The notes under the pieces are model-generated. The model was not told the origin of the DNA. It searched no databases and saw nothing but the letters and a program-made list of their open reading frames with translations. A stretch of DNA of 64,000 nucleotides from Candidatus Bipolaricaulota bacterium (GTDB lineage: Bacteria > Bipolaricaulota > Bipolaricaulia > UBA7950 > UBA9294): positions 152,089-216,088 of the forward strand of contig JANQEA010000035.1 of assembly GCA_028278555.1 (NCBI GenBank), read 5' to 3'. Positions 1,112 to 60,527 of the stretch are shown here, in pieces. Made by a program: the position numbers and the translations under genes. How positions within the stretch are numbered: position 1 is the stretch's first letter; each line of letters opens with the position of its first letter.

Positions 1112-2101
1112 ATGAAGGCGTTCGTCACAGGCGGAACCGGGTTCCTGGGAGCCAACGTCGTCCGCGATCTGCTCGAACGGAACATCGGCGTCCGCGCCCT
1201 CTGCCGGCCGACGCCGTCGCGCGGAAACCTCGAGGGCCTCGACGTCGAGATCGTCGAGGGGGATCTTCGTGATGTGCAGTCGCTCCGCCGCGGGATGGCC
1301 GGCTGCGAGCTCGTCTTCCACGTCGGCGCCCTCTACTCGTTCTGGGTCCGACCTCCCGGTCTGATCTACGAGGTCAACGTCGATGGAACGCGGAACGTCT
1401 TCGACGCCGCCCTCGAAGAGGGGATCGCGCGGGTCGTCTACACGAGCTCGGTCGCGGCACTCGGCCTCCGCGACAATGGACATCCGGCCGACGAGACGAC
1501 CGCGACGTCACTCGCCGAGGTCGTCGGCGACTACAAGAAGACGAAGTACCTCGCCGAGCAGATCGCGCTCGAGTACAGCGCGAAGCTCCCGATCGTCATC
1601 GTCAATCCGAGCTTCCCGGTCGGACCGTGGGACGCGAAGCCGACTCCGACCGGCCAGACGATCGTCGACTTCCTCAACCGGAAGATGCCCGCCTACCTCG
1701 ATACCGGGATGAACGTCGTCGACGCCCAGGACGTCGCTCTCGGCCACTGGCTGGCCCTCGAGAAGGGGACGGTCGGCGAACGGTACATCCTCGGTGGCGA
1801 AAACGTGACGATGAAGGGGCTGTTGGATCTGCTCGCCGAGATCACCGGGTTGCCATCACCTAGAATCAGGCTCCCGTACACGCCGATCCTCGCGATGTCC
1901 TACCTAAACGCCGGGTTCTGCAAGCTCTTTCCTCGGATCACCCCGCGGATGACGCCGGAGACGATCCGGATGTCGAGCCACTACATGTACTTCGATCCGA
2001 CCAAGGCCGTCCGAGAGCTCGGTTTCCCGCAGACCCCTGCCAAGGACGCCCTCGCCAAGGCCGTCGACTGGTATGGGGAGAATGGGTACGTGAAGAACTG
2101 A
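1112..2101 (+). CDS. NAD-dependent epimerase/dehydratase family protein (HpnA/dihydroflavonol-reductase-like)
   Basis: N-terminus carries the GGTGFLGANV Rossmann motif and the product is about 330 aa. An AGGAGG ribosome-binding site sits 7 nt upstream of the ATG at 1112. The ORF track frame 752..2101 is too long at its 5' end. Confidence 0.8.
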   Translation: MKAFVTGGTGFLGANVVRDLLERNIGVRALCRPTPSRGNLEGLDVEIVEGDLRDVQSLRRGMAGCELVFHVGALYSFWVRPPGLIYEVNVDGTRNVFDAALEEGIARVVYTSSVAALGLRDNGHPADETTATSLAEVVGDYKKTKYLAEQIALEYSAKLPIVIVNPSFPVGPWDAKPTPTGQTIVDFLNRKMPAYLDTGMNVVDAQDVALGHWLALEKGTVGERYILGGENVTMKGLLDLLAEITGLPSPRIRLPYTPILAMSYLNAGFCKLFPRITPRMTPETIRMSSHYMYFDPTKAVRELGFPQTPAKDALAKAVDWYGENGYVKN

Positions 2102-2250
2102 GAGGCGGAAGTATTCGACGCGTGGCAGCTGTGAAACATCGACTTTCCACTCTCAGCGCTACGCTCACTCGACTCGCAGCGCCTGGAACACCGTCAGATC
2201 AACACTGTCTCTTCGAGCAGCGGCTTCTTGACTCTGATCGAAAGGATCAA

Positions 2251-3579
2251 CTACGGCAGCTTCTTGAGAATGGCCTTGATCTTCGAATCCAGCTTGTTCT
2301 TGAGAGTAGTGATGTTCGGGTAGAACACCACCGCGAAGTCCTTGATGTCGAAATGGAGCATCGTTCCTTCTCTTGCAGTAAAGATGACTCTCTTGTTGAC
2401 GCCGTGAGTGTATCCGATTTCGTAATAGACATTGGGTCTTTCGTGCGTGAGATCCGCAATGACGAATTGCGCTGAATCTATCGATTCCATGATCTTGTCA
2501 GTTATCTTCTCCGTATCCTCAACATCATCGACCCTGTAGGCCTTCAGATCGTTCTCTTCACATACCTCCTTGATCGCAGCGTGAACATCGTCCAGGCCTG
2601 GATCTTCCTTTGTCATGGCCATGATGATGAACACCTCTCTCGATAGCTGCGGTATCCCCGCACCGGTTTCTGCAGATGCCACAACTCCACCTCCCAATTC
2701 CCGATACAGATTAGCCAGCTTCTCCTGCTCAGCTGCAAGTTGGTGAGGTGTCTTCTTGCTTGAGTGCAAATCCTCGACCAGACTTGCAAGCCGAGCATAG
2801 CTCTGAAGCCATGCCTCTGCGATGAACCCAATCCAACGATTGTGATCCTCCACTTCGTCTACAGCGAGCAGTTCCTCGTAGTACTCAGCTCTGTTTCCCA
2901 GAAAGAAGCGATCGGTACCAATGAGCGTATGGTCGAGTCTGTATCCACCAATGAGCATAGCATAATTCGCTAGTAGACGCGCAACACGCCCGTTTCCATC
3001 TAGAAACGGGTGGATTCGGGCAATCCCGTAGTGCACAACAGCTGAGACTACCACCGGGTTAGCATCGGGATTGGATTTCACCCAGTGCAGCATAGCCTGG
3101 AGAGCAAGCGAAACTGTCTCTGGCTTCGGCGGAGTGTAGAGGATCTTGCGGTCCGGCATTCTGATAACGTAATTCTGTACTTCACGCAGCTTTCCTCCGC
3201 CGCTTCCGGGAGTGAGGCGTCGGTGGGCCTCCTGGATGAGCGGAAGACTGATGGGCGCGTCTTCTGCCGCACAATCCATTAGGTATTCGATCGCCTCTGC
3301 GTAAGCTTGAATCTCGTGTCCAGATACACCAGCATCGGGCGTGCGGATACCCCGGGGGATGCCCAGAGGGGTGTCTATCCCTGTAGCCGATAGGAACTCA
3401 CCAGATTGAAGAATGCTGATAATCTCGTCCCGGTTCTTGGAAATCGACAGTACTGTTTGAACGTAGGTGTAGTGACGCGTGATTCCCTGTAGCTTTGAGA
3501 CTAGATCAGGAGTGTAGCTGAACTCGATGCTGAAACTGTCAGTCATCTTGGACTCTGCGTTTCTCTCAACGACAGACAT
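2251..3579 (-). CDS. Fic/DOC (AMPylase-type) domain fused to a C-terminal nucleoside 2-deoxyribosyltransferase/TIR-like Rossmannoid domain
   Basis: The canonical Fic motif HPFLDGNGRVARLL sits at about residues 190-203. Residues about 316-442 carry FVIADLTHERPNVYYEIGYTHGVNKRVIF, typical of the NDT/TIR-like fold with a conserved Glu. GC is about 45-50% against about 67% in the flanks. An alternative start is MTDSFS at 3546. Confidence 0.7.
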   Translation of the reverse strand: MSVVERNAESKMTDSFSIEFSYTPDLVSKLQGITRHYTYVQTVLSISKNRDEIISILQSGEFLSATGIDTPLGIPRGIRTPDAGVSGHEIQAYAEAIEYLMDCAAEDAPISLPLIQEAHRRLTPGSGGGKLREVQNYVIRMPDRKILYTPPKPETVSLALQAMLHWVKSNPDANPVVVSAVVHYGIARIHPFLDGNGRVARLLANYAMLIGGYRLDHTLIGTDRFFLGNRAEYYEELLAVDEVEDHNRWIGFIAEAWLQSYARLASLVEDLHSSKKTPHQLAAEQEKLANLYRELGGGVVASAETGAGIPQLSREVFIIMAMTKEDPGLDDVHAAIKEVCEENDLKAYRVDDVEDTEKITDKIMESIDSAQFVIADLTHERPNVYYEIGYTHGVNKRVIFTAREGTMLHFDIKDFAVVFYPNITTLKNKLDSKIKAILKKLP

Positions 3580-3865
3580 GGTGAGACATCAGACACGCCA
3601 TTCGAGCCTCCCTTCGCTGAACCCAGACTGCCGCCACATGTTCTGACTCTCTCCCATACCAGATTACCACTGGAACTCGCGCAGTGTAGGTTACCATTGT
3701 GGAGTACGTCGATCAATGCTCCGCCAGCGAGCCAACTTCCCCCCACCTCTTCAGCCTTGCTTGAGAATCGCAATCCCATCTCCCACAGGCCGCAGCGGCC
3801 TCTGAACGGCGCGGCGTATCTCGTACTACTCGTTGATGCCGTGCAGACAGAATGCCGCCTCCAGT

Positions 3866-4246
3866 TCATCTCCTACGGAGCGGGTGCTTCCGCGCCTTCA
3901 GTGTCAGCAGACCGAACGCAATGAGCCCTGCTATTAAGGACGCGATGAATGAGAACTCCAGCTCCGGCCATGGTTTTGCTTCAAGCTGAAGACCACAGAA
4001 CGGAGCAATGAATCCGACGGCGATAGCAGCTGCAATGCCCAGGCTCAAACTCGCCATCGCACGTGTCAGAAGGTCACGCGCAAGCGATCTTCCGATTTGC
4101 AGGGCGGCCAGACCAACCAGTGCGCCAACAAGCAGATCCCAGCTGTCGTAGGTGCCAGGCGCATACTCGACTGCAAGTAACGCAGCTAGAAGGGTAGCTC
4201 CCGCCGCTCCACGGCCGACGGTAGTTTCTTGAGTCGCGTTTCTCAC
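3866..4246 (-). CDS. Small membrane protein, about 127 aa with roughly 3 predicted TM helices, hypothetical
   Basis: A GAGGAGGAG ribosome-binding site sits 5 nt upstream of the GTG start at 4246. Hydrophobic segments are TLLAALLAV, LLVGALVGLAAL, LGIAAAIAVGFIAPF and FIASLIAGLIAFGLL. It lies inside the low-GC island next to the Fic fusion gene. The ORF track gives a longer version, 3866..4309. Confidence 0.45.
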   Translation of the reverse strand: MRNATQETTVGRGAAGATLLAALLAVEYAPGTYDSWDLLVGALVGLAALQIGRSLARDLLTRAMASLSLGIAAAIAVGFIAPFCGLQLEAKPWPELEFSFIASLIAGLIAFGLLTLKARKHPLRRR

Positions 4247-4375
4247 TAGTACTCCTCCTCTCGCGATCCTCTCCCACACGCGCATCGGCATCAATGATTT
4301 CTGAGCCAATCCTGCGGATGAGGACTTGCTCGATCAAGAGCGACTACCATCCCGCTCGGAGCATCCCTGCAAGAT

Positions 4376-4773
4376 TCACTCGAACACGTTGCCAGTGACG
4401 TTCCCTGCGGCATCGGTTTCTAGCAGTCCTTTGGACGAATCCAGGAGTACGAGTTCATTCTCTCACGAGTCGCGAACCACGACGCAACGACCGATCCGGA
4501 TGTCGAACGGTTGGGCAACTGTCGTACCGCCCGCTTCCGTGAAGCAGACAGCGGCCTCGTCGGCGTTCGATACCTTTAGGTCGATCTCGGGCGGCTTGGG
4601 CTCCGTGTGAAGCACGATCTCCGTTTCGTCCTTCCCTAGCGCTAGCCAACCTCATCTTCGGTCCGCCAAAGGAGTTCCAGCCTAAGCTTGTCTCGGTAGA
4701 ACGACAGACCCGATTCGAGGTCGTCCACGGACAGCTGCACACAATCCACCTTCTCGATGAGCGGTTCGGTCAC
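4376..4773 (-). pseudogene. VOC/glyoxalase-family gene disrupted by a frameshift and in-frame stops
   Basis: The N-terminal frame reads VTEPLIEKVDCVQLSVDDLESGLSFYRDKLRLELLWRTEDEVG* with a GGAGGA ribosome-binding site before a GTG. The C-terminal part is in another frame (LHTEPKPPEIDLKVSNADEAAVCFTEAGGTTVAQPFDIRIGRCVVVRDS*ENELVLLD) with a TGA where Trp or Pro is expected. The break coincides with the palindrome CTAGCGCTAG. Confidence 0.5.
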
Positions 4774-4790
4774 GGTTTCCTCCGGAGTCT

Positions 4791-6170
4791 CTACCTCTTC
4801 AGCGCAGCCTTGACCAGCTGCCGACCTAGATCCCAGAGTCCGCCGCGGAGCTTGTGCGCTTTGTCGAGGGTCGCGTCAATGGCTGAGAGCGCGAAGTCCA
4901 CATCCTCGTCCGAGAGGATCAGCGGCGGGAGGAACTTGATGATGTTCACCCGGTGGCCCGACACCTGGGTGAGGAGCCGGTGGTCGCGCATCAGACCCAT
5001 GACAACGAGCTGGGCGAAGAGCCCGGCCTGCATCGTTTCGAGCGCCTTCCACGCCGCCTTCAGCTTGAGCGACTTCGGTGGCCCGAACTCCATCCCGATC
5101 ATCAGTCCCTTCCCGCGGACGTCGTGGAGCATCTCGTACCGCGACTGCATGTCACGGAGGCCGGCGAGGAGCCGCTCCCCCTGCCGAGCGGCATTCTCGA
5201 TCAGGTTCTCCGACTCCAGCACTTCGAGCGTCGCTAGGCCTGCCCCCATCGCCAGCTCGTTCATCCCGAACGTGTTCGAGTGGACGACGCACCGCTCGAG
5301 TCCGGAGAACGTCTTCTTGTGCAGGTCGCGGCGGATCAGGATCGCGCCGACCGGGATGAACCCGCCGGAGAGGGCCTTCGAGATCGGAACGATGTCCGGT
5401 TCGAGGCCCCAATGCTCGCCGCCGAAGAAGCGGCCGGTCCGGCCGAGTCCGGCCTGGATCTCGTCGACGATGAAGACCGTCCCGTGCTTCCGGCAGAGCC
5501 GCTGCGCCTCGGGGAGGTACTCGTCGTCCGGCATGTAGACGCCCTTTCCCTGGATCGGCTCGGCGATGAACGCGGCCACATCCGCGCGCTCAAGCTCGCG
5601 CTTGAGCGCGTTCAGGTCGTTCAACGGGACGCCCGTGGAGGGAAGGAGCTGTCCGAACCCCTCGCGGAAGTGCGGGCTCCCGTTCACCGAGAGGGCCCCG
5701 AGGGTGAGTCCATGGAACGCGTGATCGATGTAGACGAACCGGTCACGCTTCGTCGCGGCACGGGAGAACTTCAGCGATCCCTCGACCGCTTCGGCCCCGG
5801 AGTTGGTGAAGAAGACAGCGTCGAGCCCAGGGTAGCTACGCTGGGCCCGTTCGGTCAGTCGCTCGGCGAGGAGGCCGGCGAGGAGCGGACAGTCCATCTG
5901 GATCAGGTTTGGCCGATCGAGGTCGAGCAGTTGGTGAAGGGTCTCCTTCAGGACCGGATGGCTCCGGCCGACCTGGTAGACGCCGTAGCCGGAGAGGAAG
6001 TCGAGGTACCGATTCCCACCGTCGTCGTAGAGGTACGCCCCCTCGCCGCGTGTGTAGGCTACGTCGTAGTCGATGATCTGCAGGACCCTCGCCAACGCCG
6101 GATTGACGTGGCGCTTGTGCAATTCGATTTGTTCCCCGAGCCGTTCTTCGATCAGCTTCGCGATCTCCAT
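4791..6170 (-). CDS. Class III pyridoxal-phosphate aminotransferase (ornithine/GABA/putrescine aminotransferase-like)
   Basis: A 459-aa product with class III transaminase motifs (FTNSGAEAVE, DEIQAGLGRTG, pyridoxal-phosphate Lys region SKALSGG). Confidence 0.85.
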   Translation of the reverse strand: MEIAKLIEERLGEQIELHKRHVNPALARVLQIIDYDVAYTRGEGAYLYDDGGNRYLDFLSGYGVYQVGRSHPVLKETLHQLLDLDRPNLIQMDCPLLAGLLAERLTERAQRSYPGLDAVFFTNSGAEAVEGSLKFSRAATKRDRFVYIDHAFHGLTLGALSVNGSPHFREGFGQLLPSTGVPLNDLNALKRELERADVAAFIAEPIQGKGVYMPDDEYLPEAQRLCRKHGTVFIVDEIQAGLGRTGRFFGGEHWGLEPDIVPISKALSGGFIPVGAILIRRDLHKKTFSGLERCVVHSNTFGMNELAMGAGLATLEVLESENLIENAARQGERLLAGLRDMQSRYEMLHDVRGKGLMIGMEFGPPKSLKLKAAWKALETMQAGLFAQLVVMGLMRDHRLLTQVSGHRVNIIKFLPPLILSDEDVDFALSAIDATLDKAHKLRGGLWDLGRQLVKAALKR

Positions 6171-12313: not shown

Positions 12314-14611
12314 CTATCGATCGCGCTTCCACGCTGCTCGCGACAGGAACTTCGGTTGCCACTGCACGAGGATCGCCGGGATGATCGAGATCGCCGACAG
12401 GGCGCTCACGCCCATCGTCAGTGCAATCTGCCAGCCGAACGTTCGGATTCCCTTGAACGAGGCGAAGATCAGGATGAAGAACCCGAGCGCAACCGTAAGG
12501 GCGTTGTAGGTAATGCCGCGTCCCGTCGTCTGGATCGTCGCCTGGAGCGATCGCTCGGCATTCCGGTCCTTTCGGTACTCCGCACGGAAGCGGGAGATGA
12601 AGTGGATCGAGTAGTCAACCCCGATGCCGATCGCGACGACCGAGACCATCAGCGTCATGATGTCGAGCGGCTGGCCGGTGTAGGCCATGATCCCCATCGA
12701 GAACGTCACCGTCAGGATCAGCGGAATCGCCGCAATCAGGCCGGCGACGACCGATCCCATCAAGATCATGACGAGCACGGCGACGGCAGAGATCGTCGTT
12801 GCCAGACCGATCAGCTGGCTGTTCTGCATCTGGGTGAACATCCGGTTCATCAGCGTCGTTCCGCCGATCATCCGGACTCTCATGGTTCCATCTGCAGGGA
12901 AGTGCTCGTCGAGGTAGCCTTGCACGAGCTTCGCGAGGCGGGAGACGTTGCCGGATGAGCCCATCTGATACATCCCGGTCACCGTCCCGGCGGAGAAGTC
13001 GCCGACGGCCATGTCGCCGAGTGTCCCACCCTGGAACGTGTACAGAAGCAAGAGCTGCGAGATCATCTCCCGACTCTCGGGGATGACATAGTAGGCCGGA
13101 TCGTCGGCGTTGAACTTCTCGTTCATCTGCCGGACGAGCGTCGTCAACGAGAAGGTCTTTGCGACACCGTTGTCGAGGAGGAACGCCTCCAGATCGAGCA
13201 TCGCGTTCAGCACCACCGGATCCTTCAATCCGTCCCGGCGCCCCGTATCGAACTCGACCATCAGACTCATATCACCGGAGAAGTACTCCGACGTGAAGTC
13301 GAGGATCTGAACCGCCTCGTGCTCCTCGCCGAGGAATTCCTCGTTCGACGTCTCAATTCGCAGACGCGGGATCCCGGCGACCATCACGCCGAAGATGATC
13401 AACGCCACGAGAAGGACCGTCTTCCGGTGTCCGACGATGACCTTTTCGAACGCAATGAGGACGCGCGTCAGTGGCCGGAACCCCTTCTTGCTCAGATCTC
13501 GAACTCTCGGCTTCTTCAGCAGCGAGAAGACGGCCGGAATCATCACGAGCGAGAAGAGCATCGCAGCCAAGACGCCGATTGCCGTGACGATGCCGAAATG
13601 GCGCTGAGGTACGAGGAACGCCGAAAGAAGTGACAGGAAACCGACGGCGGTCGTCAGCGAGGTCATGACCACCGGCGCCTTCATCTCCTGCATCGTGTTG
13701 AAGATCGCTTCGCGCTTCTCGATCCCCTTGGCGATCTCCTCGTTATAGCGGTTCAGGACGTGGATCGCATCGGCAATACCGATCGCCAGGAGGAGGATCG
13801 GCGCGATGAACGACATCGTCGTCATCGGGAAGCCGAGAAGGACCATTGCCCCCATCGCAACGATCACCGACAACAGCACGATCGCAATCGGCAGGAGAAT
13901 CCCGCGGATCGTCACGAACGATGCGAACAGGAGCGCGACCATCACGAGGATCGCCAGCGGAAAGAGGAGCGTCGTGTCGGCTTCCATCTCCTCCGCCATG
14001 ACCGTGTCGAAGTACGCGTCGCCGTAGATGTACAGGGTGTCACCGTCGCCGCGGTTCTCGTCGACGATGGCGACGATGTCCGGCGTGATGCCGTACTCGT
14101 CGGCCCCGACCTCGAGTTCGATGTTGATCAGCGCAGCCTGCCCGGACTCGCTGACAACGCCACCGATCAGGTTCTCATCGGCCATCAGCCGCTCGCGGAA
14201 GATCTCCATGTCTTCCGGTGTCCGCGGCGCGACGCCGTCTGGCGCGGCCTTGCGGACAGAAAGCGCCGTCTCGGTTCCGACAATCGTCTGGGAGTTCAGC
14301 GGCGTGCTGACCGCCTTGACCCCCGGAATCGCCTCGATCCCGTCGGTCATCCGCTCGATCTTTCCGAGCGTCGTCTCGTTGAAGATGCCGCCCTCGTTGA
14401 ACAGCATCACCATGATCCCCCACGACCGGCCGTACCGCTCCTCCGCCTCGTCCATCAGGACGATGATCGGATCGTCATCGGCCATGAACTCGCGGAAGTC
14501 GGTCTCCTGCTCCAGAAACTGGATCGGGTACGCAAGAGCCACGGCTAGCAACAGCGTCGCGGCGATCGTCCAGATTGGATGATCGACCGCAAATCGAATC
14601 AATCGGTTCAT
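12314..14611 (-). CDS. MMPL/RND superfamily exporter
   Basis: About 765 aa with 12 TM helices and two periplasmic loops. Start set at the ATG (MNRLIRF) that overlaps the upstream gene stop (ATGA) and follows a GAAGGG ribosome-binding site. Confidence 0.85.
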   Translation of the reverse strand: MNRLIRFAVDHPIWTIAATLLLAVALAYPIQFLEQETDFREFMADDDPIIVLMDEAEERYGRSWGIMVMLFNEGGIFNETTLGKIERMTDGIEAIPGVKAVSTPLNSQTIVGTETALSVRKAAPDGVAPRTPEDMEIFRERLMADENLIGGVVSESGQAALINIELEVGADEYGITPDIVAIVDENRGDGDTLYIYGDAYFDTVMAEEMEADTTLLFPLAILVMVALLFASFVTIRGILLPIAIVLLSVIVAMGAMVLLGFPMTTMSFIAPILLLAIGIADAIHVLNRYNEEIAKGIEKREAIFNTMQEMKAPVVMTSLTTAVGFLSLLSAFLVPQRHFGIVTAIGVLAAMLFSLVMIPAVFSLLKKPRVRDLSKKGFRPLTRVLIAFEKVIVGHRKTVLLVALIIFGVMVAGIPRLRIETSNEEFLGEEHEAVQILDFTSEYFSGDMSLMVEFDTGRRDGLKDPVVLNAMLDLEAFLLDNGVAKTFSLTTLVRQMNEKFNADDPAYYVIPESREMISQLLLLYTFQGGTLGDMAVGDFSAGTVTGMYQMGSSGNVSRLAKLVQGYLDEHFPADGTMRVRMIGGTTLMNRMFTQMQNSQLIGLATTISAVAVLVMILMGSVVAGLIAAIPLILTVTFSMGIMAYTGQPLDIMTLMVSVVAIGIGVDYSIHFISRFRAEYRKDRNAERSLQATIQTTGRGITYNALTVALGFFILIFASFKGIRTFGWQIALTMGVSALSAISIIPAILVQWQPKFLSRAAWKRDR

Positions 14612-15114
14612 CGGATCCATCCCTTCGTCGAATAGGCGGCCCAGAGCAGGCCGGGCCAAAGGTCTTCGGTCACGTCAATCCCCTCGCCGATCCCGGCAAA
14701 AACCTGCTCGATGATTCCTGCGATTGCGTCGAGCCCGGCAGCCACGCTCGGCGACAGTGCGCTCATCCCGGCGCTGACGATCCATATGTGGCTCGCCGTT
14801 CCGTCGTCCAATCCTCTCGGAAGGATGACGATCAGGTCATACGGCTCCTCGTCCACGCCGGGGAGCCGGTCGGCAAGTGGGTCGTCGTAGCTCGACATCA
14901 CATCGGCGAGCGTGATCCCCACGTCGAACATCCCAACGGAGCGGAGCGCTCCGACCAATCCTGCGACGCGCATCGTCGAGTTGAACGTCTTTGTCTCGTC
15001 GACGACCAGCACCCTGACGAGGGGCGGAGCGTCCTGCGCGAGCCCGCCAAGCGGGATCGCGATCGCGACCATCATCAGCGCAATCAACAGAGCGTGCGAG
15101 CGTTTCGACATCAC
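14608..15114 (-). CDS. Small secreted or periplasmic protein, possibly an MmpS-like accessory to the MMPL exporter
   Basis: Has an N-terminal TM or signal segment (MMSKRSHALLIALMMVAIAIPLGG) and is 168 aa. It is translationally coupled on both sides. Confidence 0.5.
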   Translation of the reverse strand: MMSKRSHALLIALMMVAIAIPLGGLAQDAPPLVRVLVVDETKTFNSTMRVAGLVGALRSVGMFDVGITLADVMSSYDDPLADRLPGVDEEPYDLIVILPRGLDDGTASHIWIVSAGMSALSPSVAAGLDAIAGIIEQVFAGIGEGIDVTEDLWPGLLWAAYSTKGWIR

Positions 15115-15617
15115 GAACCTCCTCCGTATTCGGCCATCCGTTCCTTCTTCAGTTCGGGGTATCGAACCTTCCAGCGGTCGGCCAATCGCGGAAGCTCTTC
15201 CTCGACGTAGTCGAAGAAGACCATCATCTCCAATAGTCGCTCTTTCGCCTCGATCGGTTCACCTTCGAGCGCGGCAAGACCGAGGGCCGCCAGTTCCTTG
15301 TGCCGCTGGAGGTGCTCCGTCCGCTGGACGTACATGTCCATCCAGATCCCCGGACGGATGCGATAGTAGTGGCGCCGATGTCCGGGAAGGCTCACCTTCT
15401 CAATCACACTAAGCCGCAGGAGCAGCCGGGTTGCCATGCTGATCGAACCCCGGCTCGCCTGGAGGCGCTCGGCCAGTTCGTCCATCGATAGGTACGGGGG
15501 CACACAAACCTGGAGTGCCCCCAGAACGCGGCCGGCCATGTGCGAGAGGCCATGCTCTTCCATCATGTCACCTGTCATCTCCACAAATCGCCTCTCGGCA
15601 TCGAGGGTCTTCACCAT
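15111..15617 (-). CDS. Winged-helix transcriptional regulator (GbsR/MarR-like)
   Basis: HTH region GRVLGALQVCVPPYLSMDELAERLQASRGSISMATRLL. It is the first gene of the MMPL operon, and a GAAGGAGGA ribosome-binding site precedes the ATG. Confidence 0.6.
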   Translation of the reverse strand: MVKTLDAERRFVEMTGDMMEEHGLSHMAGRVLGALQVCVPPYLSMDELAERLQASRGSISMATRLLLRLSVIEKVSLPGHRRHYYRIRPGIWMDMYVQRTEHLQRHKELAALGLAALEGEPIEAKERLLEMMVFFDYVEEELPRLADRWKVRYPELKKERMAEYGGGS

Positions 15618-15641
15618 GGATCCTCCTTCGAGCAGAGCACT

Positions 15642-15669
15642 ATTCTAATTGTTTTGTCTCTTCAGTCAA
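15642..15669 (-). promoter_or_regulatory. Sigma70-like promoter for the regulator/MMPL operon
   Basis: On the minus strand there is TTGACT, a 16-17 nt spacer, then TAGAAT, about 20 nt upstream of the regulator start. It lies in the AT-rich intergenic region. Confidence 0.45.
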
Positions 15670-15732
15670 GTTTGAAACCAGCGAACAGAAAAGGGATTGT
15701 TCACTGCCCGTTATTCACGAAACCTACACATT

Positions 15733-16518
15733 CTAGCGAGGCCGCGCCAGGAAGAGGGTTGCAACTTGGGGCCGATCGATCGACCCGCCGAATCGATCGA
15801 TCGTCGAACGGACGGCCTCCGAGAGGCTCCCGAACGTCGCACGATCGAGGGCGAGATGGTCGGAGTGCGTCCGGAGGAGTCGAAGGTATCGTTCCGTCGC
15901 GTAGGTGGATGTCCACGGGACTCTCACGACGTCTGGCTCGTCGAAGAGGCCCGAGGCGCGGATTTCGCGCAGCGTACGCTCGACCCGATCTTCCAGCGAC
16001 GACCGCCAAGAGGCACGGCCAAGCTGCGGCGCGCATGAGCGATAGACCTCGTCGAGCGCCCGGTAAACCGGTGCATCGGATCCTGGGAAGAGGTTCCAGA
16101 TGAGCGCGAGGTGGCCGGGCGATCGAAGCGCCGCGTGGGCTTTTCGGTAGCCAATCGTCGGTTCGATCCAGTGAAACGCCTGCGCCGAGACGACAAGCTC
16201 GTAGGCGCACGGCTCGACGTCCCAGGTCTCGAAGTCGGCGCAGTCGACGGTCGCATTCGGAAATCGTTCGAGGTTGTGCGCCGCCAGCCGACTCAGTTCT
16301 TCGCCGAGTTCGACCGCGGTGATCGCGTATCCACGCTTCGCCAGGAGGACGGTCAGCTGCCCGGTCCCGCAGCCGATCTCGAGAATCGATCCGCCGCCCG
16401 GGATCCCTGATCGAGCAACCAGCTCGTCGATCAGCTCCACCGGATACCCAGGACGGGCAGCATCGTAGTCGGCTGCAGCCCCGTCAAACAGCCGGCGATC
16501 GCTTCGATTGAACGTCAT
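15733..16518 (-). CDS. Class I SAM-dependent methyltransferase
   Basis: Carries motif I ILEIGCGTGQLT and is 261 aa. Confidence 0.8.
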   Translation of the reverse strand: MTFNRSDRRLFDGAAADYDAARPGYPVELIDELVARSGIPGGGSILEIGCGTGQLTVLLAKRGYAITAVELGEELSRLAAHNLERFPNATVDCADFETWDVEPCAYELVVSAQAFHWIEPTIGYRKAHAALRSPGHLALIWNLFPGSDAPVYRALDEVYRSCAPQLGRASWRSSLEDRVERTLREIRASGLFDEPDVVRVPWTSTYATERYLRLLRTHSDHLALDRATFGSLSEAVRSTIDRFGGSIDRPQVATLFLARPR

Positions 16519-16744
16519 GCCGTGGTCCTCCTGTTCAGGAATCCGGGGATTCTACGCAAGCGGATCGCCTCCGGCGAACCGGACACTCCGATTGCCGGAG
16601 ACGACGCGTTGGGCCCACCGCATCGCAGGTGGAGATCTCTCCCTTCTGCCGTAGACACACGGCGAGTCGGGGGGAGAGACGGACGCGAGACGATTCCGGG
16701 GATGCTCGGACTGTCAGTTCGCACCGTGAAGGAGGAAATCACCA

Positions 16745-17860
16745 ATGGATCCGATCGATGTTCGTGCCAAGTGGGTCGAGCCTCAGGCCGTCACTTCGTC
16801 TCGCTGCTTCGTCAAGGATCAGCACGACGTCCAGGCTGCCATCCGTGAGCTTCGCGAGAAGGCCGGAGCCACAGCGAGCGGGCCACCCGTCTGTCTCTTT
16901 CTGGGGCACGACCCGGAGAAGGGGTTCGAAGTCGAAATCGGCCTTCCGGTGTCCAATGCGGGATCGATCGGTGACCTCGAGATCAAGACGCTTCCCGGCG
17001 ATCACGTCCTCTGGACGCAGCACATCGGTCCGCACACGAAAGCCAACGGCGCGGCCGGGCTCCGCGAAACGGCCGAGCGGATGTGGGGATTCATTGCCGA
17101 GAAGAACCTTCTCGCCGGCGACAACCCGACACGCTACGTCTACCTCGAAGGGGGAGAGACACACGGCGAGCATGCCGAGCGGTACGTCACGGAGATCCAG
17201 ATCTCCTATCACTTCCCGCTCTGGATCGAGTCGCTCGAACGCGGCTTGAAGGAGCAGACCGGTGCCGAGACGGCCGCAGCCGTGACCGCCGGCGCCGATG
17301 CGGTCCGCCACAACTTCGACTCCGAGACACTCCGGTCGTGGGTCCTCGGAACGCTCGATCGCCTCGACGAATCGGTTCCGTCCGAGCGGACACGCGCCTG
17401 TGTCCTCAACGGGTGTGCCCATCGATACCCGAAGATCCAGCTCCTTCGGATGAAGGCGGCCTACGAAGAAGAAGGCGACATCCTCCGGTTCATCGAACGG
17501 CTCAATCGCGACAACGACCTGTTCCCGGCACGAATCTTCTGGAAGGGTGGGGACCCGAAGAACGTCATTTGCATCGAGAAGGTGATCCCTCCGTGGAATC
17601 GGCAGGCGTACGAGAAGGCAACCGATCCGGTTGAGAAGCGATACCTCGGCTGCTTCTGCTCGCTGGTGAAGGAGGTCATCCGCACCGGCGAGGAGCTGTC
17701 GCCGTCGTTCTGTCACTGCTCCGCCGGGTGGTTCGTCCAGATGTGGGAGACGGTTCTCGATCGAACCCCGATCCGCGTCGACATCGTCGAGTCGGTCCTC
17801 CGCGGAGACGACCGCTGCGTCTTCGCCATCCACCTTCCCGAGGAGCTGTTCGCCAAGTAA
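16745..17860 (+). CDS. GyrI-like small-molecule-binding domain protein with a Cys-rich C-terminal domain
   Basis: The first 150 aa or so resemble the GyrI-like/AraC effector-binding fold. The C-terminal domain has Cys clusters (CVLNGCAH, CFCSL, CHCSAGW), suggesting metal or cofactor binding. Confidence 0.5.
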   Translation: MDPIDVRAKWVEPQAVTSSRCFVKDQHDVQAAIRELREKAGATASGPPVCLFLGHDPEKGFEVEIGLPVSNAGSIGDLEIKTLPGDHVLWTQHIGPHTKANGAAGLRETAERMWGFIAEKNLLAGDNPTRYVYLEGGETHGEHAERYVTEIQISYHFPLWIESLERGLKEQTGAETAAAVTAGADAVRHNFDSETLRSWVLGTLDRLDESVPSERTRACVLNGCAHRYPKIQLLRMKAAYEEEGDILRFIERLNRDNDLFPARIFWKGGDPKNVICIEKVIPPWNRQAYEKATDPVEKRYLGCFCSLVKEVIRTGEELSPSFCHCSAGWFVQMWETVLDRTPIRVDIVESVLRGDDRCVFAIHLPEELFAK

Positions 17861-17866
17861 TGGGTG

Positions 17867-19096
17867 TCAGAACTCCCACTCTTCGGTGCTGAGCGTGAAG
17901 CCGCTGACGTGCTGTGGAATCGGGTCGTACAACAGCGATTCGCCTGTCCGGATCGCGTGCTCGCCGAAGCGATCTCGGATCCGATCGACTGCCTGATTCA
18001 GCCGCTCACGGCGCTGATCCTCTTGCAACAGAGGCCCGGGAAGACCGGCCTTATCCGTAAGGTTGCGAACTGAGACGCCAATCTGCGTGACCTCCTTCGG
18101 TTTCATGGGGATCTTCCGGAAGGCCGCCAGACAGGCTTGATAGATGCTGTCTCGATCATCGGTAGGCGATGCCAGTGTCACTTGTTTCCCGCGATACTCG
18201 GACGTGTCCGCACGAAACCACGCGTGGACTGTCCGCCCGACGTACCCGAGCCTTCGCAGCCGACGCGCAACCAGATCGCACAAGTTCAGAAGAACTCGAA
18301 GAGCACTCTCGATCTCGCGCAAGTCGGGCCGCAGGGTTCGCGAATGGCCGACCGATTTCGCCGCGGCAGGCTCGGTGTACGGAATCACAGGGTTCGGATC
18401 TCGGCCTTCCCCGACGGCCTTGAGGAATCGACCGTACGCCCCGAATTCGCCTTTCAGATAGGCTTCCGACGCCTTCCCCAGCTCGGCTAGGGTTCGGATC
18501 CCCGCTCTCGCCAACCGTGGTTCGATCCGATGCCCGATCCCGCAGAGCTCCCCGACGGACGTTTCGACCAACAGCTCCGGAATCTCCTCGTCGTCCAGGA
18601 AGCCGATCCCATCCGGCTTGTGTCGATATCCGATCAGCTTGGCAAAGGCCTTGCCCGAGGCAATTCCGATCGTCGCCGTGATGTACTCCCCCAGCTCATC
18701 GCGGAAGTCCGCCTTGATCTCACGCGCCATCGGGATCGGTCCCCCGCGGCGAGGCGCCTCCTGCGTGACGTCCATGAAGACCTCATCGACGCTGAAGACC
18801 TCGATCATTGGGGTGTAACGTTCCAGAATGACAAGGAATTCCTTGGTTGTTGAGAGGTAACGTTCGGCGCGGCCGGGAACGAGTACGAGGCTGGGACAGA
18901 GACGCCGCGCTTCCCAGACCGGCATCCCTGCGATCAATCCGTACTTCTTCGCTTCTCGCGATGCCGCGACGATGATCGACTTCTCCGTTGGGCGACCTGT
19001 GACGCCGATCGGTTTGCCCCGCAGGCTCGGATCATGCTGCTGTTCGACGGACGCGAAGTAGGAGTCCATGTCGAGATGCATGATCACACGTCGCAC
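17867..19096 (-). CDS. dinB: DNA polymerase IV (Y-family, DinB)
   Basis: Has the HLDMDSYFASVE catalytic motif, a Y-family palm/fingers region and a little-finger domain. Confidence 0.9.
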   Translation of the reverse strand: MRRVIMHLDMDSYFASVEQQHDPSLRGKPIGVTGRPTEKSIIVAASREAKKYGLIAGMPVWEARRLCPSLVLVPGRAERYLSTTKEFLVILERYTPMIEVFSVDEVFMDVTQEAPRRGGPIPMAREIKADFRDELGEYITATIGIASGKAFAKLIGYRHKPDGIGFLDDEEIPELLVETSVGELCGIGHRIEPRLARAGIRTLAELGKASEAYLKGEFGAYGRFLKAVGEGRDPNPVIPYTEPAAAKSVGHSRTLRPDLREIESALRVLLNLCDLVARRLRRLGYVGRTVHAWFRADTSEYRGKQVTLASPTDDRDSIYQACLAAFRKIPMKPKEVTQIGVSVRNLTDKAGLPGPLLQEDQRRERLNQAVDRIRDRFGEHAIRTGESLLYDPIPQHVSGFTLSTEEWEF

Positions 19097-19233
19097 AGTG
19101 CCTCCCGATCGCTCCGTATGCCGATGTCTTCTCGCCCCTCATTGCGGCTGATCGACGCCGTCGGGGACGTTTCCCATCCCACAAGAATACCCTCCGCAAT
19201 CGTTGAGGGAATAGCGAGCGCGAAAACGAGTGC

Positions 19234-19256
19234 GGGACGGCGCGATCGGCCGTCCC
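19234..19256 (-). terminator. Hairpin immediately downstream of the DUF885 gene stop (putative terminator)
   Basis: GGGACGGC/GCCGTCCC forms an 8-bp stem with a 7-nt loop. On the minus strand it is followed by a GUUUUC stretch. Confidence 0.4.
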
Positions 19257-19269
19257 GCGTGAGATGATT

Positions 19270-20910: not shown

Positions 20911-20975
20911 GTCCCAACCTCCTTCTGATTCCTCATTTACATCTGTTTGTCGCAGCTCCGAAGCGTTCGGTTCAG

Positions 20976-21533
20976 CTAGACCTGATAACCGCTGATCTCA
21001 TCCTCCGTCGCCTCGACCCCGAGCCCGAGAACGATCCGGTTGACGAAGTTGAAGTAGGCGACAATCAGGGCGATTGAGAGGATGTCTTCATCGGAGAAGC
21101 CCGCTGTGCGGAGGGACTCGATGTCCTCCTCGATGACGTTCTCCGGGGTCTCGGTCAGCTTCTGCGCGTACTCGAGCGCGACCGTCATTTTCGGGCCGAC
21201 GTCGACCGCCTCGCGATCCTCGACGAAGCGGGCGAGACGTTCCGGATCGCGCCAGTAGTGTCCGAGCGCTTCGGCGTGATGGCGGATGCAATACGGACAG
21301 CGATTCGACGTCGAGACGACGACGGCGATCATCTCGCGCTCCTCGCGGGAGAGGTCGGACCGCGAGAACATCGTCGCCAGGTAGAGATCCATGTGCGCCG
21401 TCATCGCCTCCGGCCGAAGGCTGTGGACGGCCATGATGTTCGACAGCTTCCCGCGCTTCCCCTTGACCCTCTCGAACGCAGCGCGTAGTTCGTCGTCCGC
21501 CTCGTCTTCACCGATCACGCGGATCCAGGCCAT
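20976..21533 (-). CDS. Carboxymuconolactone decarboxylase/AhpD-like peroxidase-related family protein
   Basis: Has a CMD-domain CxxxH-like region (NRCPYCIRHH). A GAGGAGG ribosome-binding site precedes the ATG (MAWIRV) at 21533. Confidence 0.7.
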   Translation of the reverse strand: MAWIRVIGEDEADDELRAAFERVKGKRGKLSNIMAVHSLRPEAMTAHMDLYLATMFSRSDLSREEREMIAVVVSTSNRCPYCIRHHAEALGHYWRDPERLARFVEDREAVDVGPKMTVALEYAQKLTETPENVIEEDIESLRTAGFSDEDILSIALIVAYFNFVNRIVLGLGVEATEDEISGYQV

Positions 21534-21622
21534 CGATGCCTCCTCAGTCTGGCAGAATGGTCCGATCATATCCCGCCTCTTAGTGCGCATCAGCCGCTAT
21601 CGATCTCGCTCGCTCGATAGCC

Positions 21623-21650
21623 TTGACAATCGAATTCCGGAGCGTATACT
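21623..21650 (+). promoter_or_regulatory. Near-consensus sigma70 promoter (TTGACA-16 nt-TATACT)
   Basis: The -35 box TTGACA is at 21623-21628 and the -10 box TATACT at 21645-21650. It lies upstream of the membrane-protein/regulator operon. Confidence 0.6.
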
Positions 21651-21654
21651 GCAG

Positions 21655-21677
21655 AGTACTTTGCGCTGCAAAGTACT
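21655..21677 (+). promoter_or_regulatory. Perfect 23-bp palindromic operator AGTACTTTGC-GCT-GCAAAGTACT overlapping the transcription start
   Basis: Perfect 10-bp inverted repeats separated by 3 bp, immediately downstream of the -10 element. This is the typical position of a repressor operator. Confidence 0.55.
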
Positions 21678-21692
21678 TGACGGGAGAGAACT

Positions 21693-23284: not shown

Positions 23285-23316
23285 CAAGCGCAACCACCCG
23301 ATGGAGGAGGTGACCT

Positions 23317-23400: not shown

Positions 23401-23412
23401 AACATCTGGTCC

Positions 23413-23759: not shown

Positions 23760-23791
23760 GTCCCTGATTTCGACTATGGGAGATGGTTCAA

Positions 23792-60516: not shown

Positions 60517-60527
60517 ATCTCGTGCTC

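What the first reader, a model, noticed from the sequence alone, without database searches (positions are those of the whole stretch)
2251..3579. Fic (AMPylase-motif) domain fused to a nucleoside-2-deoxyribosyltransferase/TIR-like Rossmannoid domain
The N-terminal 280 aa or so carry the complete Fic active-site motif HPFLDGNGRVAR. The His, both Gly, the Asn and both Arg required for NMP transfer are all present. I could not find an inhibitory (S/T)xxxE(G/N) helix in cis, and no FicA-like antitoxin ORF is nearby. The C-terminal 125 aa or so (VFIIMAM...FVIADLTHERPNVYYEIGYTHGVNKRVIF) match the NDT/TIR-like flavodoxin-like fold. The conserved acidic residue in YYEIGY corresponds to the catalytic Glu of N-glycosidases, and NAD+- or nucleotide-degrading TIR/NDT-like effectors are common anti-phage effectors. 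I am not aware of a described Fic-NDT/TIR fusion. It could be a bifunctional effector, or an AMPylation-regulated NADase or nucleotidase.
Basis: partly seen in the sequence, partly recalled or inferred. Interest (0 to 1): 0.8.

Follow-up and report, generated by a model that had tools for sequence, protein, structure and literature searches.

The report
Rare Fic AMPylase fused to N-glycosidase module
A horizontally acquired gene encodes a rare two-headed protein: a protein-AMPylating Fic enzyme joined to a nucleotide-cleaving domain that bacterial immune systems use. It is most likely a self-contained anti-phage or toxin protein, but nobody has tested this combination.

Summary
ORF 2251..3579 (minus strand, 442 aa) carries a Fic domain (Pfam E=1.4e-19) with an intact HPFLDGNGRVAR loop (H190–R201). 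A conserved linker joins it to a 125-aa C-terminal Rossmannoid module (aa 314–440).

The module belongs to the TIR/NDT superfamily:
- PADLOC CBASS "Effector TIR" model, E=9.5e-13.
- Profile hits to NDT and DNPH1.

No canonical inhibitory motif and no FicA-like antitoxin is present.

The module is not unique to this protein. It is a promiscuous C-terminal "warhead" found in 506 loci of species-representative genomes. It is attached to at least 47 unrelated N-terminal domains and has no conserved partner gene. It is homologous (hhalign 98%) to the enzymatic head of a ThsI-like (type VIII Thoeris) effector.

The Fic fusion itself is very rare: two clusters among 1.84 billion representatives, and no description in the searchable literature. 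Orthologues sit beside defence genes. Here the gene lies in a low-GC islet (GC3 0.585 against 0.82–0.88 in neighbours).

Best reading: a stand-alone abortive-infection or toxin protein, and a new architectural variant of known kinds. Function is untested. Interest is moderate (0.5).

The parts
2251..3579 (-). Whole ORF, 442 aa: Fic domain, conserved linker, TIR/NDT-like module. ATG 3546 (M12) is an alternative start.
3322..3579 (-). N-terminal helical region (aa 1-86). It includes helix 24-46, the counterpart of the SoFic dimerisation helix, and a degenerate alpha-inh region. There is no (S/T)xxxE(G/N). E61 (3397-3399) and D69 (3373-3375) are conserved among orthologues.
   Evidence: SoFic helix from 10.64898/2026.07.09.737422
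2743..3321 (-). Fic core (aa 87-279), class II/SoFic-like.
   Evidence: Pfam E=1.4e-19; PADLOC SoFic E=5.9e-38; PDB SoFic/FICD E~5e-14; Foldseek FICD/SoFic
3136..3168 (-). Predicted beta-hairpin 'flap' (aa 138-148, VIRMPDRKILY), which docks the target in Fic enzymes.
   Evidence: DSSP strands 138-140 and 145-148 in the AF2 model. The role is inferred from Fic-family knowledge.
2977..3012 (-). Fic catalytic loop HPFLDGNGRVAR (H190-R201), invariant in all five fusion sequences.
2641..2796 (-). Helical linker (aa 262-313). Its core, aa 280-313 (QLxxEQEKLxNLYRExGG..GIPxLS), is 68% identical to the 56%-identity orthologues, as conserved as the module.
2260..2640 (-). C-terminal TIR/NDT-superfamily Rossmannoid module (aa 314-440), a putative N-glycosidase effector domain.
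2404..2442 (-). Signature motif ERPNVYYEIGYTH (E380-H392). The invariant E387 (2419-2421) aligns with the catalytic Glu of NDT and DNPH1.
2347..2355 (-). Invariant H409-F410-D411 motif after beta-4 of the module.
3566..3614 (-). Strong Shine-Dalgarno AAGGGAGG (3607-3614), followed by an out-of-frame 11-codon mini-ORF (3601..3566, MACLMSHHVCR*) that overlaps the annotated start codon.
   Evidence: function not tested
1962..1976 (.). Left copy of a perfect 15-nt direct repeat (CGATCCGGATGTCGA) bracketing the low-GC islet.
4492..4506 (.). Right copy of the same 15-nt direct repeat.

Best explanation
The gene encodes a self-contained, horizontally acquired conflict protein, either an abortive-infection-type anti-phage defence or a toxin, with two enzymatic heads.

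Shown:
- The N-terminal head is a SoFic-like (class II-derived) Fic nucleotidyl-transferase with a complete catalytic loop.
- It has lost the recognisable auto-inhibitory (S/T)xxxE(G/N) helix.
- The wHTH C-terminal domain that regulates SoFic has been replaced by a 125-aa TIR/NDT-superfamily module with an invariant catalytic-type Glu (E387).
- That module is a mobile 'warhead'. It sits at the C-terminus of dozens of unrelated N-terminal domains, has no conserved partner gene, and is homologous to effector domains of CBASS and ThsI-like Thoeris proteins.

Inferred:
- The module hydrolyses the N-glycosidic bond of a nucleotide (NMP/dNMP as in DNPH1 and MilB, or NAD+ as in TIR domains) and so depletes an essential metabolite.
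- The Fic half occupies the position that sensor, regulator or oligomerisation domains occupy in sister proteins. By analogy with SoFic, its activity probably depends on dimerisation, and it AMPylates a cellular target such as EF-Tu.
- A phage-derived or stress cue would drive assembly through the Fic N-terminal helix and the conserved linker. Both activities would switch on and growth would stop.
For: Architecture:
- Pfam, PADLOC and PDB hits.
- Both catalytic motifs and the linker are invariant in five independent fusion sequences.

Fic half:
- Nearest relatives are Fic_N+Fic+wHTH proteins at 36% identity or less.
- The motif [ST]xxxE[GN] is present in 100 of 118 relatives and absent here.
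- The model fits FICD and SoFic.

Module as an enzyme or effector:
- F317, M320, D376, N383, E387, G389, F410 and D411 are invariant across 120 proteins.
- E387 aligns to the NDT/DNPH1 nucleophile.
- The only PADLOC match in 11 module proteins is the CBASS 'Effector TIR' model.
- hhalign gives 98.2% (E=5e-14) to the enzymatic head of a TPR-S protein lying in a TIR+SLATT locus.
- That protein matches the validated type VIII Thoeris effector ThsI as described in 10.64898/2025.12.03.692087.
- Hcp-module fusions exist.

Stand-alone and mobile:
- 506 loci in species genomes across many phyla and archaea.
- No neighbour cluster occurs in more than 4 of 80 loci.
- At least 47 N-terminal classes.

Defence context of orthologues:
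- ThsB-TIR operon (L001).
- AbiV-HEPN plus an SMC-like ATPase (L013).
- A sister family sits inside an R-M/AAA_15/Mrr island (L006).

Foreign origin here:
- GC 0.516 and GC3 0.585, against 0.82-0.88 in neighbours.
- A 15-nt direct repeat flanks the islet.

SoFic precedent:
- It AMPylates EF-Tu, needs dimerisation, and its C-terminal domain regulates toxicity.
Against: - No experiment exists on this protein or any close relative.
- Pfam scores for the module are below the gathering thresholds.
- The substrate is undecided.
- The window's neighbourhood is housekeeping genes, not a defence island.
- An uninhibited Fic toxin with no antitoxin should be hard to maintain. Either an unrecognised cis-inhibition exists (E61, D69 or the module itself) or the Fic head is not a free-running toxin.
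- The full-length model is only moderate (pLDDT 62.6) and gives no reliable inter-domain geometry.
- The Hcp-module example lies on an integrative element without T6SS genes. Hcp may therefore act there as an oligomerisation scaffold rather than as proof of a secreted toxin.
Confidence: 0.45

Rival explanations
1. The module is a ligand sensor rather than an enzyme. It would bind a nucleotide signal (for example a cADPR isomer made by a TIR protein encoded elsewhere, or a cyclic nucleotide) and gate the Fic toxin. It would then take over the regulatory role of the SoFic C-terminal domain, much as the SLOG domain gates SIR2 in ThsA.
For: - The module replaces exactly the domain that regulates SoFic toxicity.
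- A ThsB-TIR operon lies 1.5 kb from the orthologue in L001.
- P0015 (P-loop + module) follows Ogg-QueC-TIR-SLATT in L002 and L019.
Against: - The invariant Glu lies at the catalytic position of NDT, DNPH1 and TIR enzymes.
- PADLOC's homologous model is an effector.
- In the ThsI-like protein the sensor is thought to be TPR-S and the homologous domain is the enzymatic head.
- Only 1 of 80 module loci has a TIR or SLATT gene nearby, and the window has none.
- The TIR genes in L001 and L002 already have their own adjacent effector-type partners.
Confidence: 0.18
2. AMPylation acts as an internal switch. The Fic head does not attack a cellular target. It auto-AMPylates, or AMPylates and de-AMPylates the module or linker, so that the glycosidase module is the only killing activity and Fic is its regulator.
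For: - In sister proteins the N-terminal position is filled by NTP-using or scaffold domains (P-loop kinases, RuvB-like AAA+, nucleotide cyclase, HEAT, STALD/SLOG, Hcp) that look regulatory.
- SoFic auto-AMPylates and switches between AMPylation and deAMPylation with its oligomeric state.
- The linker is as conserved as the module.
Against: - The predicted target-docking flap and the complete catalytic loop are retained, as in target-directed Fic enzymes.
- No acceptor Tyr, Thr or Ser could be pinpointed.
- Nothing distinguishes this reading from the best explanation without experiments.
Confidence: 0.2
3. The protein has a non-conflict role. It would be a metabolic or regulatory enzyme that couples nucleotide salvage (an NDT- or DNPH1-like activity) with AMPylation-based regulation, with no part in defence or toxicity.
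For: - The window's neighbours are housekeeping genes.
- The PF05014 family includes genuine salvage enzymes.
- Many module proteins sit alone among metabolic genes (L009, L010).
Against: - Strongly atypical GC3 and a repeat-flanked islet.
- Extreme rarity and a patchy distribution.
- Defence-gene neighbours of the orthologues.
- Promiscuous domain shuffling, integron-integrase or integrative-element contexts.
- Homology to validated immune effectors.
Confidence: 0.1
4. The fusion is an artefact or a decaying gene: a mis-assembly, or a frameshift-joined pair of genes that is not expressed as one protein.
For: - The annotated ATG lacks a properly spaced Shine-Dalgarno, and a strong SD serves an out-of-frame mini-ORF instead.
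- The neighbouring 147-aa ORF is an orphan.
Against: - The same full-length architecture recurs at 56% and 80% identity in independent assemblies from JGI, ENA and Logan.
- Those copies have no stops, an invariant linker and intact catalytic motifs.
Confidence: 0.02

Closest known systems
SoFic (Shewanella oneidensis Fic; single-gene anti-phage system 'SoFic'; PDB 3EQX, 3ZCN)
   Same: - Class II-type Fic fold and HxFxDGNGRxxR loop.
- Best PADLOC (E=5.9e-38) and PDB sequence hits.
- An N-terminal helix in the position of the SoFic dimerisation helix.
- Single-gene, mobile, defence-island-associated in orthologues.
   Different: - Only about 20-36% identity.
- NCBIfam equivalog score 69.6 against 550.
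- Fic_N and the inhibitory SxxxEG motif are not recognisable.
- The wHTH C-terminal domain is replaced by the TIR/NDT-like module.
- No downstream AS1-like antitoxin gene.
ThsI, effector of type VIII Thoeris ('CMP hydrolase' + TPR; 10.64898/2025.12.03.692087), represented here by the TPR-S protein of Rhizobium plasmid NZ_CP104156 (L097)
   Same: - Homologous enzymatic domain: hhalign 98.2%, E=5e-14.
- Shared FxxM.., ADLT..N.NVxYExG..HA and .FD motifs.
- An immune effector built on an NDT-superfamily head.
   Different: - In ThsI the domain is N-terminal and followed by a TPR-S sensor. It works with an adjacent ThsB TIR that makes cADPR.
- Here the domain is C-terminal and preceded by Fic. No TIR gene is nearby, and identity is only about 28%.
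- I did not have the published ThsI sequences. The identification of L097 as ThsI-like rests on architecture, context and TIR homology.
Cap12/Pycsar-type TIR effectors (PF10137; TIR-STING, TIR-SAVED; PADLOC PDLC00733 CBASS 'Effector TIR')
   Same: - PDLC00733 matches the module at E=9.5e-13.
- A similar R.NV..E.G motif.
- The same logic of a variable sensor domain plus a glycosidase head.
   Different: - PF10137 is far below threshold (13.2 against 24.7 bits).
- No CD-NTase or cyclase gene is nearby.
- No STING or SAVED sensor is present.
- NADase activity is not shown.
DNPH1/Rcl, MilB/BcmB and nucleoside 2-deoxyribosyltransferases (PF05014 clan)
   Same: - Best PDB profile hits.
- The catalytic Glu aligns.
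   Different: - Identity is 15-20%.
- Pfam is below the gathering score.
- No Gly-rich phosphate loop of DNPH1 is evident.
- Fused to a signalling or toxin domain and mobile, unlike the salvage enzymes.
Swarozyc / DUF4062 TIR-like NADases (10.64898/2026.05.01.722283)
   Same: A single-gene defence in which a TIR/NDT-like head is joined to an auxiliary domain by helical stalks and is activated by assembly.
   Different: - No PF13271 match for this protein.
- The TIR-like head is N-terminal in Swarozyc.
- It is a different subfamily.

Membership tests
Fic/Fido family (PF02661) | Pfam score above the gathering threshold | tested here: met
   71.1 bits against 24, E=1.4e-19
Fic/Fido family (PF02661) | Catalytic loop HxFx(D/E)GNGRxxR typical of NMP-transferring Fic enzymes | tested here: met
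   HPFLDGNGRVAR at aa 190-201, invariant in 5 fusion sequences
Fic/Fido family (PF02661) | All-helical Fic fold with a beta-hairpin flap | tested here: met
   AF2 Fic region pLDDT 70-90 with a hairpin at 138-148; Foldseek hits FICD and SoFic with prob 1.00
Fic/Fido family (PF02661) | AMP-transferase activity | not testable with these tools
   Needs a biochemical assay
SoFic (NCBIfam NF046030 equivalog; SoFic defence system) | Full-length equivalog score of at least 550 bits | tested here: not met
   69.6 bits, covering only aa 143-257
SoFic (NCBIfam NF046030 equivalog; SoFic defence system) | N-terminal inhibitory helix with (S/T)xxxE(G/N) (class II) | tested here: not met
   No regex match, against 100 of 118 relatives with one. 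Three alignment methods disagree on the equivalent residue.
SoFic (NCBIfam NF046030 equivalog; SoFic defence system) | C-terminal wHTH domain | tested here: not met
   Relatives carry PF11972 or other HTH domains. Here aa 314-440 form the Rossmannoid module.
Class I Fic toxin-antitoxin (FicT/FicA, VbhT/VbhA) | Adjacent small antitoxin ORF carrying the inhibitory motif | tested here: not met
   Six-frame scan of 1200-5200 gave only 4 chance-level matches in implausible frames
Nucleoside 2-deoxyribosyltransferase family (PF05014) | Pfam gathering score | tested here: not met
   21.6 bits against 28.8. 94 of 120 and 95 of 136 module proteins give E<=1e-3 hits.
Nucleoside 2-deoxyribosyltransferase family (PF05014) | Catalytic Glu nucleophile at the N-terminus of the helix after the central strand | tested here: met
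   E387 aligns with the Glu of FELGYA in 6qai and YELG in DNPH1, and is invariant in the family
Nucleoside 2-deoxyribosyltransferase family (PF05014) | NDT/DNPH1-type fold | tested here: met
   [not shown]
TIR domain, Cap12/Pycsar type (PF10137) | Pfam gathering score | tested here: not met
   13.2 bits against 24.7
TIR domain, Cap12/Pycsar type (PF10137) | Match to a curated defence-effector TIR model | tested here: met
   PADLOC PDLC00733, E=9.5e-13. The same model hits all 10 other module proteins tested.
TIR domain, Cap12/Pycsar type (PF10137) | NAD+ hydrolase activity that depends on oligomerisation | not testable with these tools
   Needs enzymology and structure determination
Thoeris type VIII (ThsB + ThsI) | Enzymatic head homologous to the ThsI 'CMP hydrolase' domain | tested here: met
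   hhalign 98.2%, E=4.8e-14 to the ThsI-like protein of L097. Caveat: the published ThsI sequences themselves were not available.
Thoeris type VIII (ThsB + ThsI) | TPR-S sensor domain in the effector | tested here: not met
   No TPR-S or MAP3K_TRAF_bd hit in the query. Both are present in L097.
Thoeris type VIII (ThsB + ThsI) | Adjacent ThsB-type TIR gene | tested here: not met
   No TIR or SLATT homologue anywhere in the 64-kb window. Only 1 of 80 module loci has one.
Swarozyc / DUF4062 (PF13271) | PF13271 match | tested here: not met
   No hit at E<=1

The most novel reading that the evidence does not exclude
The two heads could act in sequence on the same adduct. Fic would AMPylate a target protein such as EF-Tu. 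The tethered N-glycosidase module would then cleave the adenine from the protein-bound AMP. That would leave a phosphoribosyl mark that deAMPylases cannot remove, making this an irreversible two-step protein modification of a kind not yet described for Fic enzymes.

The evidence allows this reading but does not require it:
- Both catalytic sites are invariant.
- The 34-aa linker is as conserved as the module.
- The module's closest folds, DNPH1 and MilB, act on nucleoside 5'-monophosphates, the same chemical group as a protein-linked AMP.
Probability: 0.05. Interest if true: 0.85.

Novelty: new variant of a known kind. Interest (0 to 1): 0.5.

Why it matters
If the protein is active, it would be the first example of a Fic AMPylase wired in one polypeptide to a nucleotide-cleaving immune effector. 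It would offer a natural experiment on how SoFic-type toxins are controlled: the regulatory wHTH domain and the inhibitory Glu are both gone, yet the gene is maintained.

It also draws attention to a large, mostly uncharacterised family of single-gene "X + NDT/TIR-like module" proteins. They occur in about 500 species-level genomes, with at least 47 N-terminal types, in both bacteria and archaea. Their warhead is homologous to the effector head of type VIII Thoeris and of a CBASS effector.

Finding the module's substrate (NMP/dNMP or NAD+) and its activation rule in one tractable member would probably carry over to the whole family.

Tried and rejected
1. ThsB-TIR as an obligate partner (Thoeris-like system). 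This was prompted by TIR genes near the orthologue in L001 and near P0015 in L002. I rejected it as a general rule. No TIR or SLATT homologue exists in the window. Only 1 of 80 genome loci has one. No neighbour cluster recurs in more than 4 of 80 loci. The TIRs in L001 and L002 already have their own adjacent partners.

2. The upstream 147-aa membrane ORF (3866..4309) as an operon partner. Rejected: it is an orphan that matches only itself among 5.8 billion proteins, and it is not similar to the neighbours of the orthologues.

3. A FicA/VbhA-type antitoxin or an AS1-like downstream gene. None was found.

4. DUF4062/Swarozyc membership. No Pfam hit.

5. Phage origin. The fusion is absent from IMG/VR, and the module is rare there. 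Only distant module homologues occur in Streptococcus and Staphylococcus prophages.

6. A combined Fic-plus-module alignment (A2) for structure prediction. MAFFT misplaced the Fic homologues onto the module, so I used two separate alignments (A3, A4).

7. Locating the inhibitory Glu by alignment. MAFFT, ungapped register and hhalign gave three different answers. Model coordinates could not be read, so no distances were measured.

8. Exact-sequence look-up of the window protein's contig. It is not on record. The source organism could not be named.

9. A metagenome scan for more fusions.

10. The afdb50 fold library was unavailable.

11. Literature searches for a described Fic-TIR/NDT fusion found nothing.
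Full report
**1. What is in the sequence**

A single uninterrupted ORF runs from 3579 to 2251 on the minus strand (442 aa).

The gene sits in a compositional islet. Its GC is 0.516 and its GC3 is 0.585. The seven flanking genes have GC3 of 0.82–0.88: a metallophosphoesterase, an NAD-epimerase, a class III aminotransferase, a TAtT-like TPR protein, DUF975, a GNAT and a methyltransferase.

A perfect 15-nt direct repeat (1962–1976 and 4492–4506) brackets the islet.

The only other ORF in the islet is a 147-aa hydrophobic ORF (3866..4309). It is an orphan with no homologue among 5.8 billion proteins.

The gene is therefore a recent horizontal acquisition placed among housekeeping genes.

**2. The Fic half**

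- Pfam PF02661 matches aa 110–207 at E=1.4e-19.
- The PADLOC SoFic model matches aa 87–279 at E=5.9e-38.
- The best solved relatives are SoFic and FICD, at E about 5e-14.
- The catalytic loop HPFLDGNGRVAR (H190–R201) is complete.
- An AF2 model built on 74 sequences gives pLDDT 70–90 for the Fic core, with the expected β-hairpin flap at aa 138–148. It superposes on FICD, SoFic and Dde_2494.

The nearest sequence relatives are ordinary Fic_N+Fic(+wHTH) proteins at 36% identity or less. NCBIfam's SoFic equivalog is missed by a wide margin, 69.6 bits against 550.

The strict inhibitory motif [ST]xxxE[GN] is present in 100 of 118 relatives, usually as SSQIEG 138 residues before the catalytic His. 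It is absent from the query and its orthologues.

Three ways of aligning the region disagree on where the inhibitory Glu would fall:
- MAFFT puts it at F62, next to the conserved E61.
- The ungapped register puts it at G60.
- hhalign puts it at D51, which is not conserved.

AF2 is unconfident for residues 62–85. The α-inh element is therefore degenerate, though a non-canonical inhibitor (E61, or D69 in a conserved "GIDT") cannot be excluded.

No FicA/VbhA-like antitoxin ORF and no downstream small gene is present.

**3. The C-terminal module**

The module spans aa 314–440. Pfam scores are below threshold (PF05014 21.6 bits against 28.8; PF10137 13.2 against 24.7), but the match is not a chance one.

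- The PADLOC CBASS "Effector: TIR" model PDLC00733 matches at E=9.5e-13.
- A family profile hits NDT (6qai, E=0.0018), DNPH1/Rcl (E=0.01–0.05), Cap12 (E=0.12) and the CMP N-glycosidases. E387 falls on their catalytic Glu.
- An AF2 model of the module alone is confident (pLDDT 91, pTM 0.85).
- Foldseek ranks DNPH1, MilB, Rcl and BcmB first (TM 0.66–0.74), with TIRs interleaved.

Across 120 homologues the invariant residues are F317, M320, D376, N383, E387, G389, F410 and D411. The block E380-R-P-N-V-Y-Y-E-I-G-Y-A-H392, K396, T406, H409 and Y420 are near-invariant. All of these lie at strand ends or helix starts, as in a Rossmannoid active site; that placement is my inference.

**4. The module is a promiscuous warhead**

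Position and partners:
- In the first 120 homologues the module is almost always at the very C-terminus, behind variable N-termini.
- Pfam-recognisable partners include guanylate-kinase or P-loop kinases, RuvB-like AAA+, HEAT, Hcp, a nucleotide cyclase, CBS, HARE-HTH and STALD/SLOG. Most partners have no Pfam match.
- Clustering 287 N-terminal regions gives at least 47 unrelated classes. The Fic class has five sequences.

Distribution:
- A scan of 185,579 species-representative genomes found 506 module loci across many bacterial phyla and several archaeal orders.
- In 80 of these loci no neighbour family recurs in more than four loci. The two most frequent are an integron-type integrase and a DUF5131-like protein.
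- Only one of the 80 loci carries TIR, SLATT, QueC and Ogg genes.
- Module proteins are thus mostly stand-alone and mobile.

Relation to known defence effectors:
- PADLOC recognises the module in ten diverse members only through the CBASS TIR-effector model.
- A Rhizobium plasmid locus (L097) encodes TIR–QueC–Ogg–TIR–PfkB. Divergently it encodes an [NDT-like + MAP3K_TRAF_bd/TPR-S] protein, then DUF4231 (SLATT), then TIR.
- The TIR next to that pair is homologous to the validated type VIII Thoeris TIRs (E about 1e-17 to 1e-18).
- The head of its TPR-S protein is homologous to the module (hhalign 98.2%, E=4.8e-14). By phmmer that protein hits 75 of the 79 module ORFs.
- This matches the published description of ThsI ("CMP hydrolase and TPR"), an effector triggered by canonical cADPR (10.64898/2025.12.03.692087).

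**5. Rarity and context of the Fic fusion**

- An exhaustive HMMER pass over 1.84 billion cluster representatives found only two clusters with both halves: P0002 (432 aa, 56% identity) and the fragment P0004 (80% identity).
- In the 15-billion-protein collection I found P0001, P0002, P0375, P0003 and P0004.
- All five keep both catalytic motifs and an invariant linker.
- Identity to the 56% orthologues is 38–39% in the N-terminal helices, 52–54% in the Fic core, 68% in the linker and 67–71% in the module.
- None of the 80 loci encoding the nearest ordinary Fic proteins has a module fused or within 8 kb.
- The fusion is absent from IMG/VR.
- The orthologues sit beside defence-type genes: a ThsB-TIR two-gene operon in L001, and an AbiV-type HEPN protein plus a 946-aa SMC-like ATPase in L013.
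- A sister module family lies inside a type I R-M/AAA_15-21/NOV_C/Mrr island.
- Literature searches found no description of a Fic–TIR/NDT fusion.

**6. How it most likely works**

Shown:
- Two intact catalytic signatures in one conserved polypeptide.
- Loss of the canonical cis-inhibitory motif and of the wHTH domain.
- Homology of the module to immune effector heads.
- Stand-alone, mobile genomics.

From published work on SoFic:
- It AMPylates switch I of EF-Tu.
- AMPylation and toxicity require homodimerisation through an N-terminal helix.
- The C-terminal domain regulates toxicity.
- An E. coli Sofic has a downstream antitoxin.

From the Swarozyc work: a TIR-like head is activated when its auxiliary domain assembles on a phage protein.

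Inferred for this protein:
- It is an abortive-infection-type or toxin protein.
- The Fic half occupies the sensor, regulator or oligomeriser position, and probably also AMPylates a target.
- The module hydrolyses a nucleotide N-glycosidic bond. The substrate is undecided: NMP/dNMP is slightly favoured by fold ranking, and NAD+ is favoured by the TIR-effector homology.

I put 0.45 on this reading. The rivals are:
- the module as a ligand sensor gating Fic (0.18);
- AMPylation as a purely internal switch for the glycosidase (0.20);
- a non-conflict metabolic role (0.10);
- an artefact (0.02).

**7. Comparison with known families, and novelty**

The protein is a bona fide Fic-family member. It is not a SoFic equivalog, because three defining features fail. 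Its module belongs to the TIR/NDT superfamily but passes neither the PF05014 nor the PF10137 threshold. It is homologous to ThsI-like heads yet fails the Thoeris membership tests, having no TPR-S domain and no ThsB gene nearby.

The pairing of Fic with this module is undescribed and very rare. Both parts, however, are known effector classes, and domain shuffling of this sort is typical of defence genes. I therefore rate it a new variant of a known kind, with moderate interest (0.5).

**8. Limits**

- There are no experiments on this protein.
- The source organism was not identified.
- The afdb50 library was unavailable.

Noticed in passing
window 1962-1976 and 4492-4506: A perfect 15-nt direct repeat (CGATCCGGATGTCGA), spaced 2530 nt apart, brackets the low-GC islet holding the Fic-module gene. 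The left copy lies inside the 3' end of the epimerase gene. It could be an att-like or target duplication of a 2.5-kb inserted cassette. There is no integrase inside the islet.
   Followed up: partly
window 3566-3614 (minus strand): A strong Shine-Dalgarno (AAGGGAGG) lies 5 nt before an out-of-frame ATG (3601). That ATG opens an 11-codon mini-ORF (MACLMSHHVCR*) overlapping the annotated start ATG 3579, which itself lacks a properly spaced SD. This could be a leader peptide or translational coupling. Orthologues align from about residue 11, so ATG 3546 (M12) is an alternative start.
   Followed up: partly
window 3866-4309 (minus strand): A 147-aa hydrophobic ORF (TTG start, GC3 0.56) lies upstream on the same strand in the same islet. 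It is an orphan whose only match in 5.8 billion proteins is itself. It is either a spurious ORF or a lineage-specific gene.
   Followed up: yes
L013-L016 (contigs carrying P0375): All four independent contigs carrying the 56%-identity orthologue begin 190-192 nt upstream of its start codon. This suggests a repeat or a strain-variable junction at that point.
   Followed up: no
L002 5014-9077; L019 2318-6381: An operon-like row: Ogg(HhH)-QueC-ThsB_TIR-SLATT, followed 296 nt later by a P-loop-kinase-like + module protein (P0015). It resembles the rare published operons with both ThsH (SLATT) and ThsI effectors, but with a different N-terminal domain on the ThsI-like protein. It is a candidate variant Thoeris effector.
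   Followed up: partly
L097 (Rhizobium sophoriradicis plasmid NZ_CP104156, record 14003-24431): A dense TIR locus: TIR-QueC-Ogg-TIR(467 aa)-PfkB kinase, then divergently an NDT-like+TPR-S protein, DUF4231/SLATT and another TIR. That makes three TIR genes and two effector types in 10 kb.
   Followed up: partly
L081 6001-7950 (Mariniflexile sp. AS56 chromosome): A module-bearing protein is immediately followed by a second gene encoding an NDT-like head plus TPR-S (428 aa). Two paralogous warhead proteins sit side by side.
   Followed up: no
L099 (contig carrying the Hcp-module fusion P0044): The Hcp-module fusion lies on a small integrative element (tyrosine integrase, HTH_17 excisionase-like protein, AAA_25) with no T6SS genes within 7 kb. 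Hcp may serve there as a ring-forming scaffold rather than a secretion carrier.
   Followed up: partly
L021, L039 and other genome loci: The most recurrent neighbours of module genes, each in 4 of 80 loci, are an integron-type integrase and a DUF5131-like (phage Gp37/Gp68-type) protein. This hints that some module genes travel as integron cassettes or with phage-derived elements.
   Followed up: no
L047, L052, L063, L074, L080-L082, L085 (one N-terminal class, 13 members): One N-terminal partner class weakly matches STALD, the Sir2- and TIR-associating SLOG family (E=9e-4). A SLOG-sensor + module architecture would parallel ThsA (SLOG + SIR2).
   Followed up: no
phage records H26-H40: Distant module homologues (26-35% identity) are encoded by Streptococcus, Staphylococcus and Lactobacillus temperate phages, for example Streptococcus phage SM1 gp11. 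They are annotated as hypothetical proteins.
   Followed up: no
window 60441-60602 (minus strand): A tRNA-Val(GAC) and tRNA-Cys(GCA) pair. These are the only tRNA genes in the window and are unrelated to the finding.
   Followed up: no
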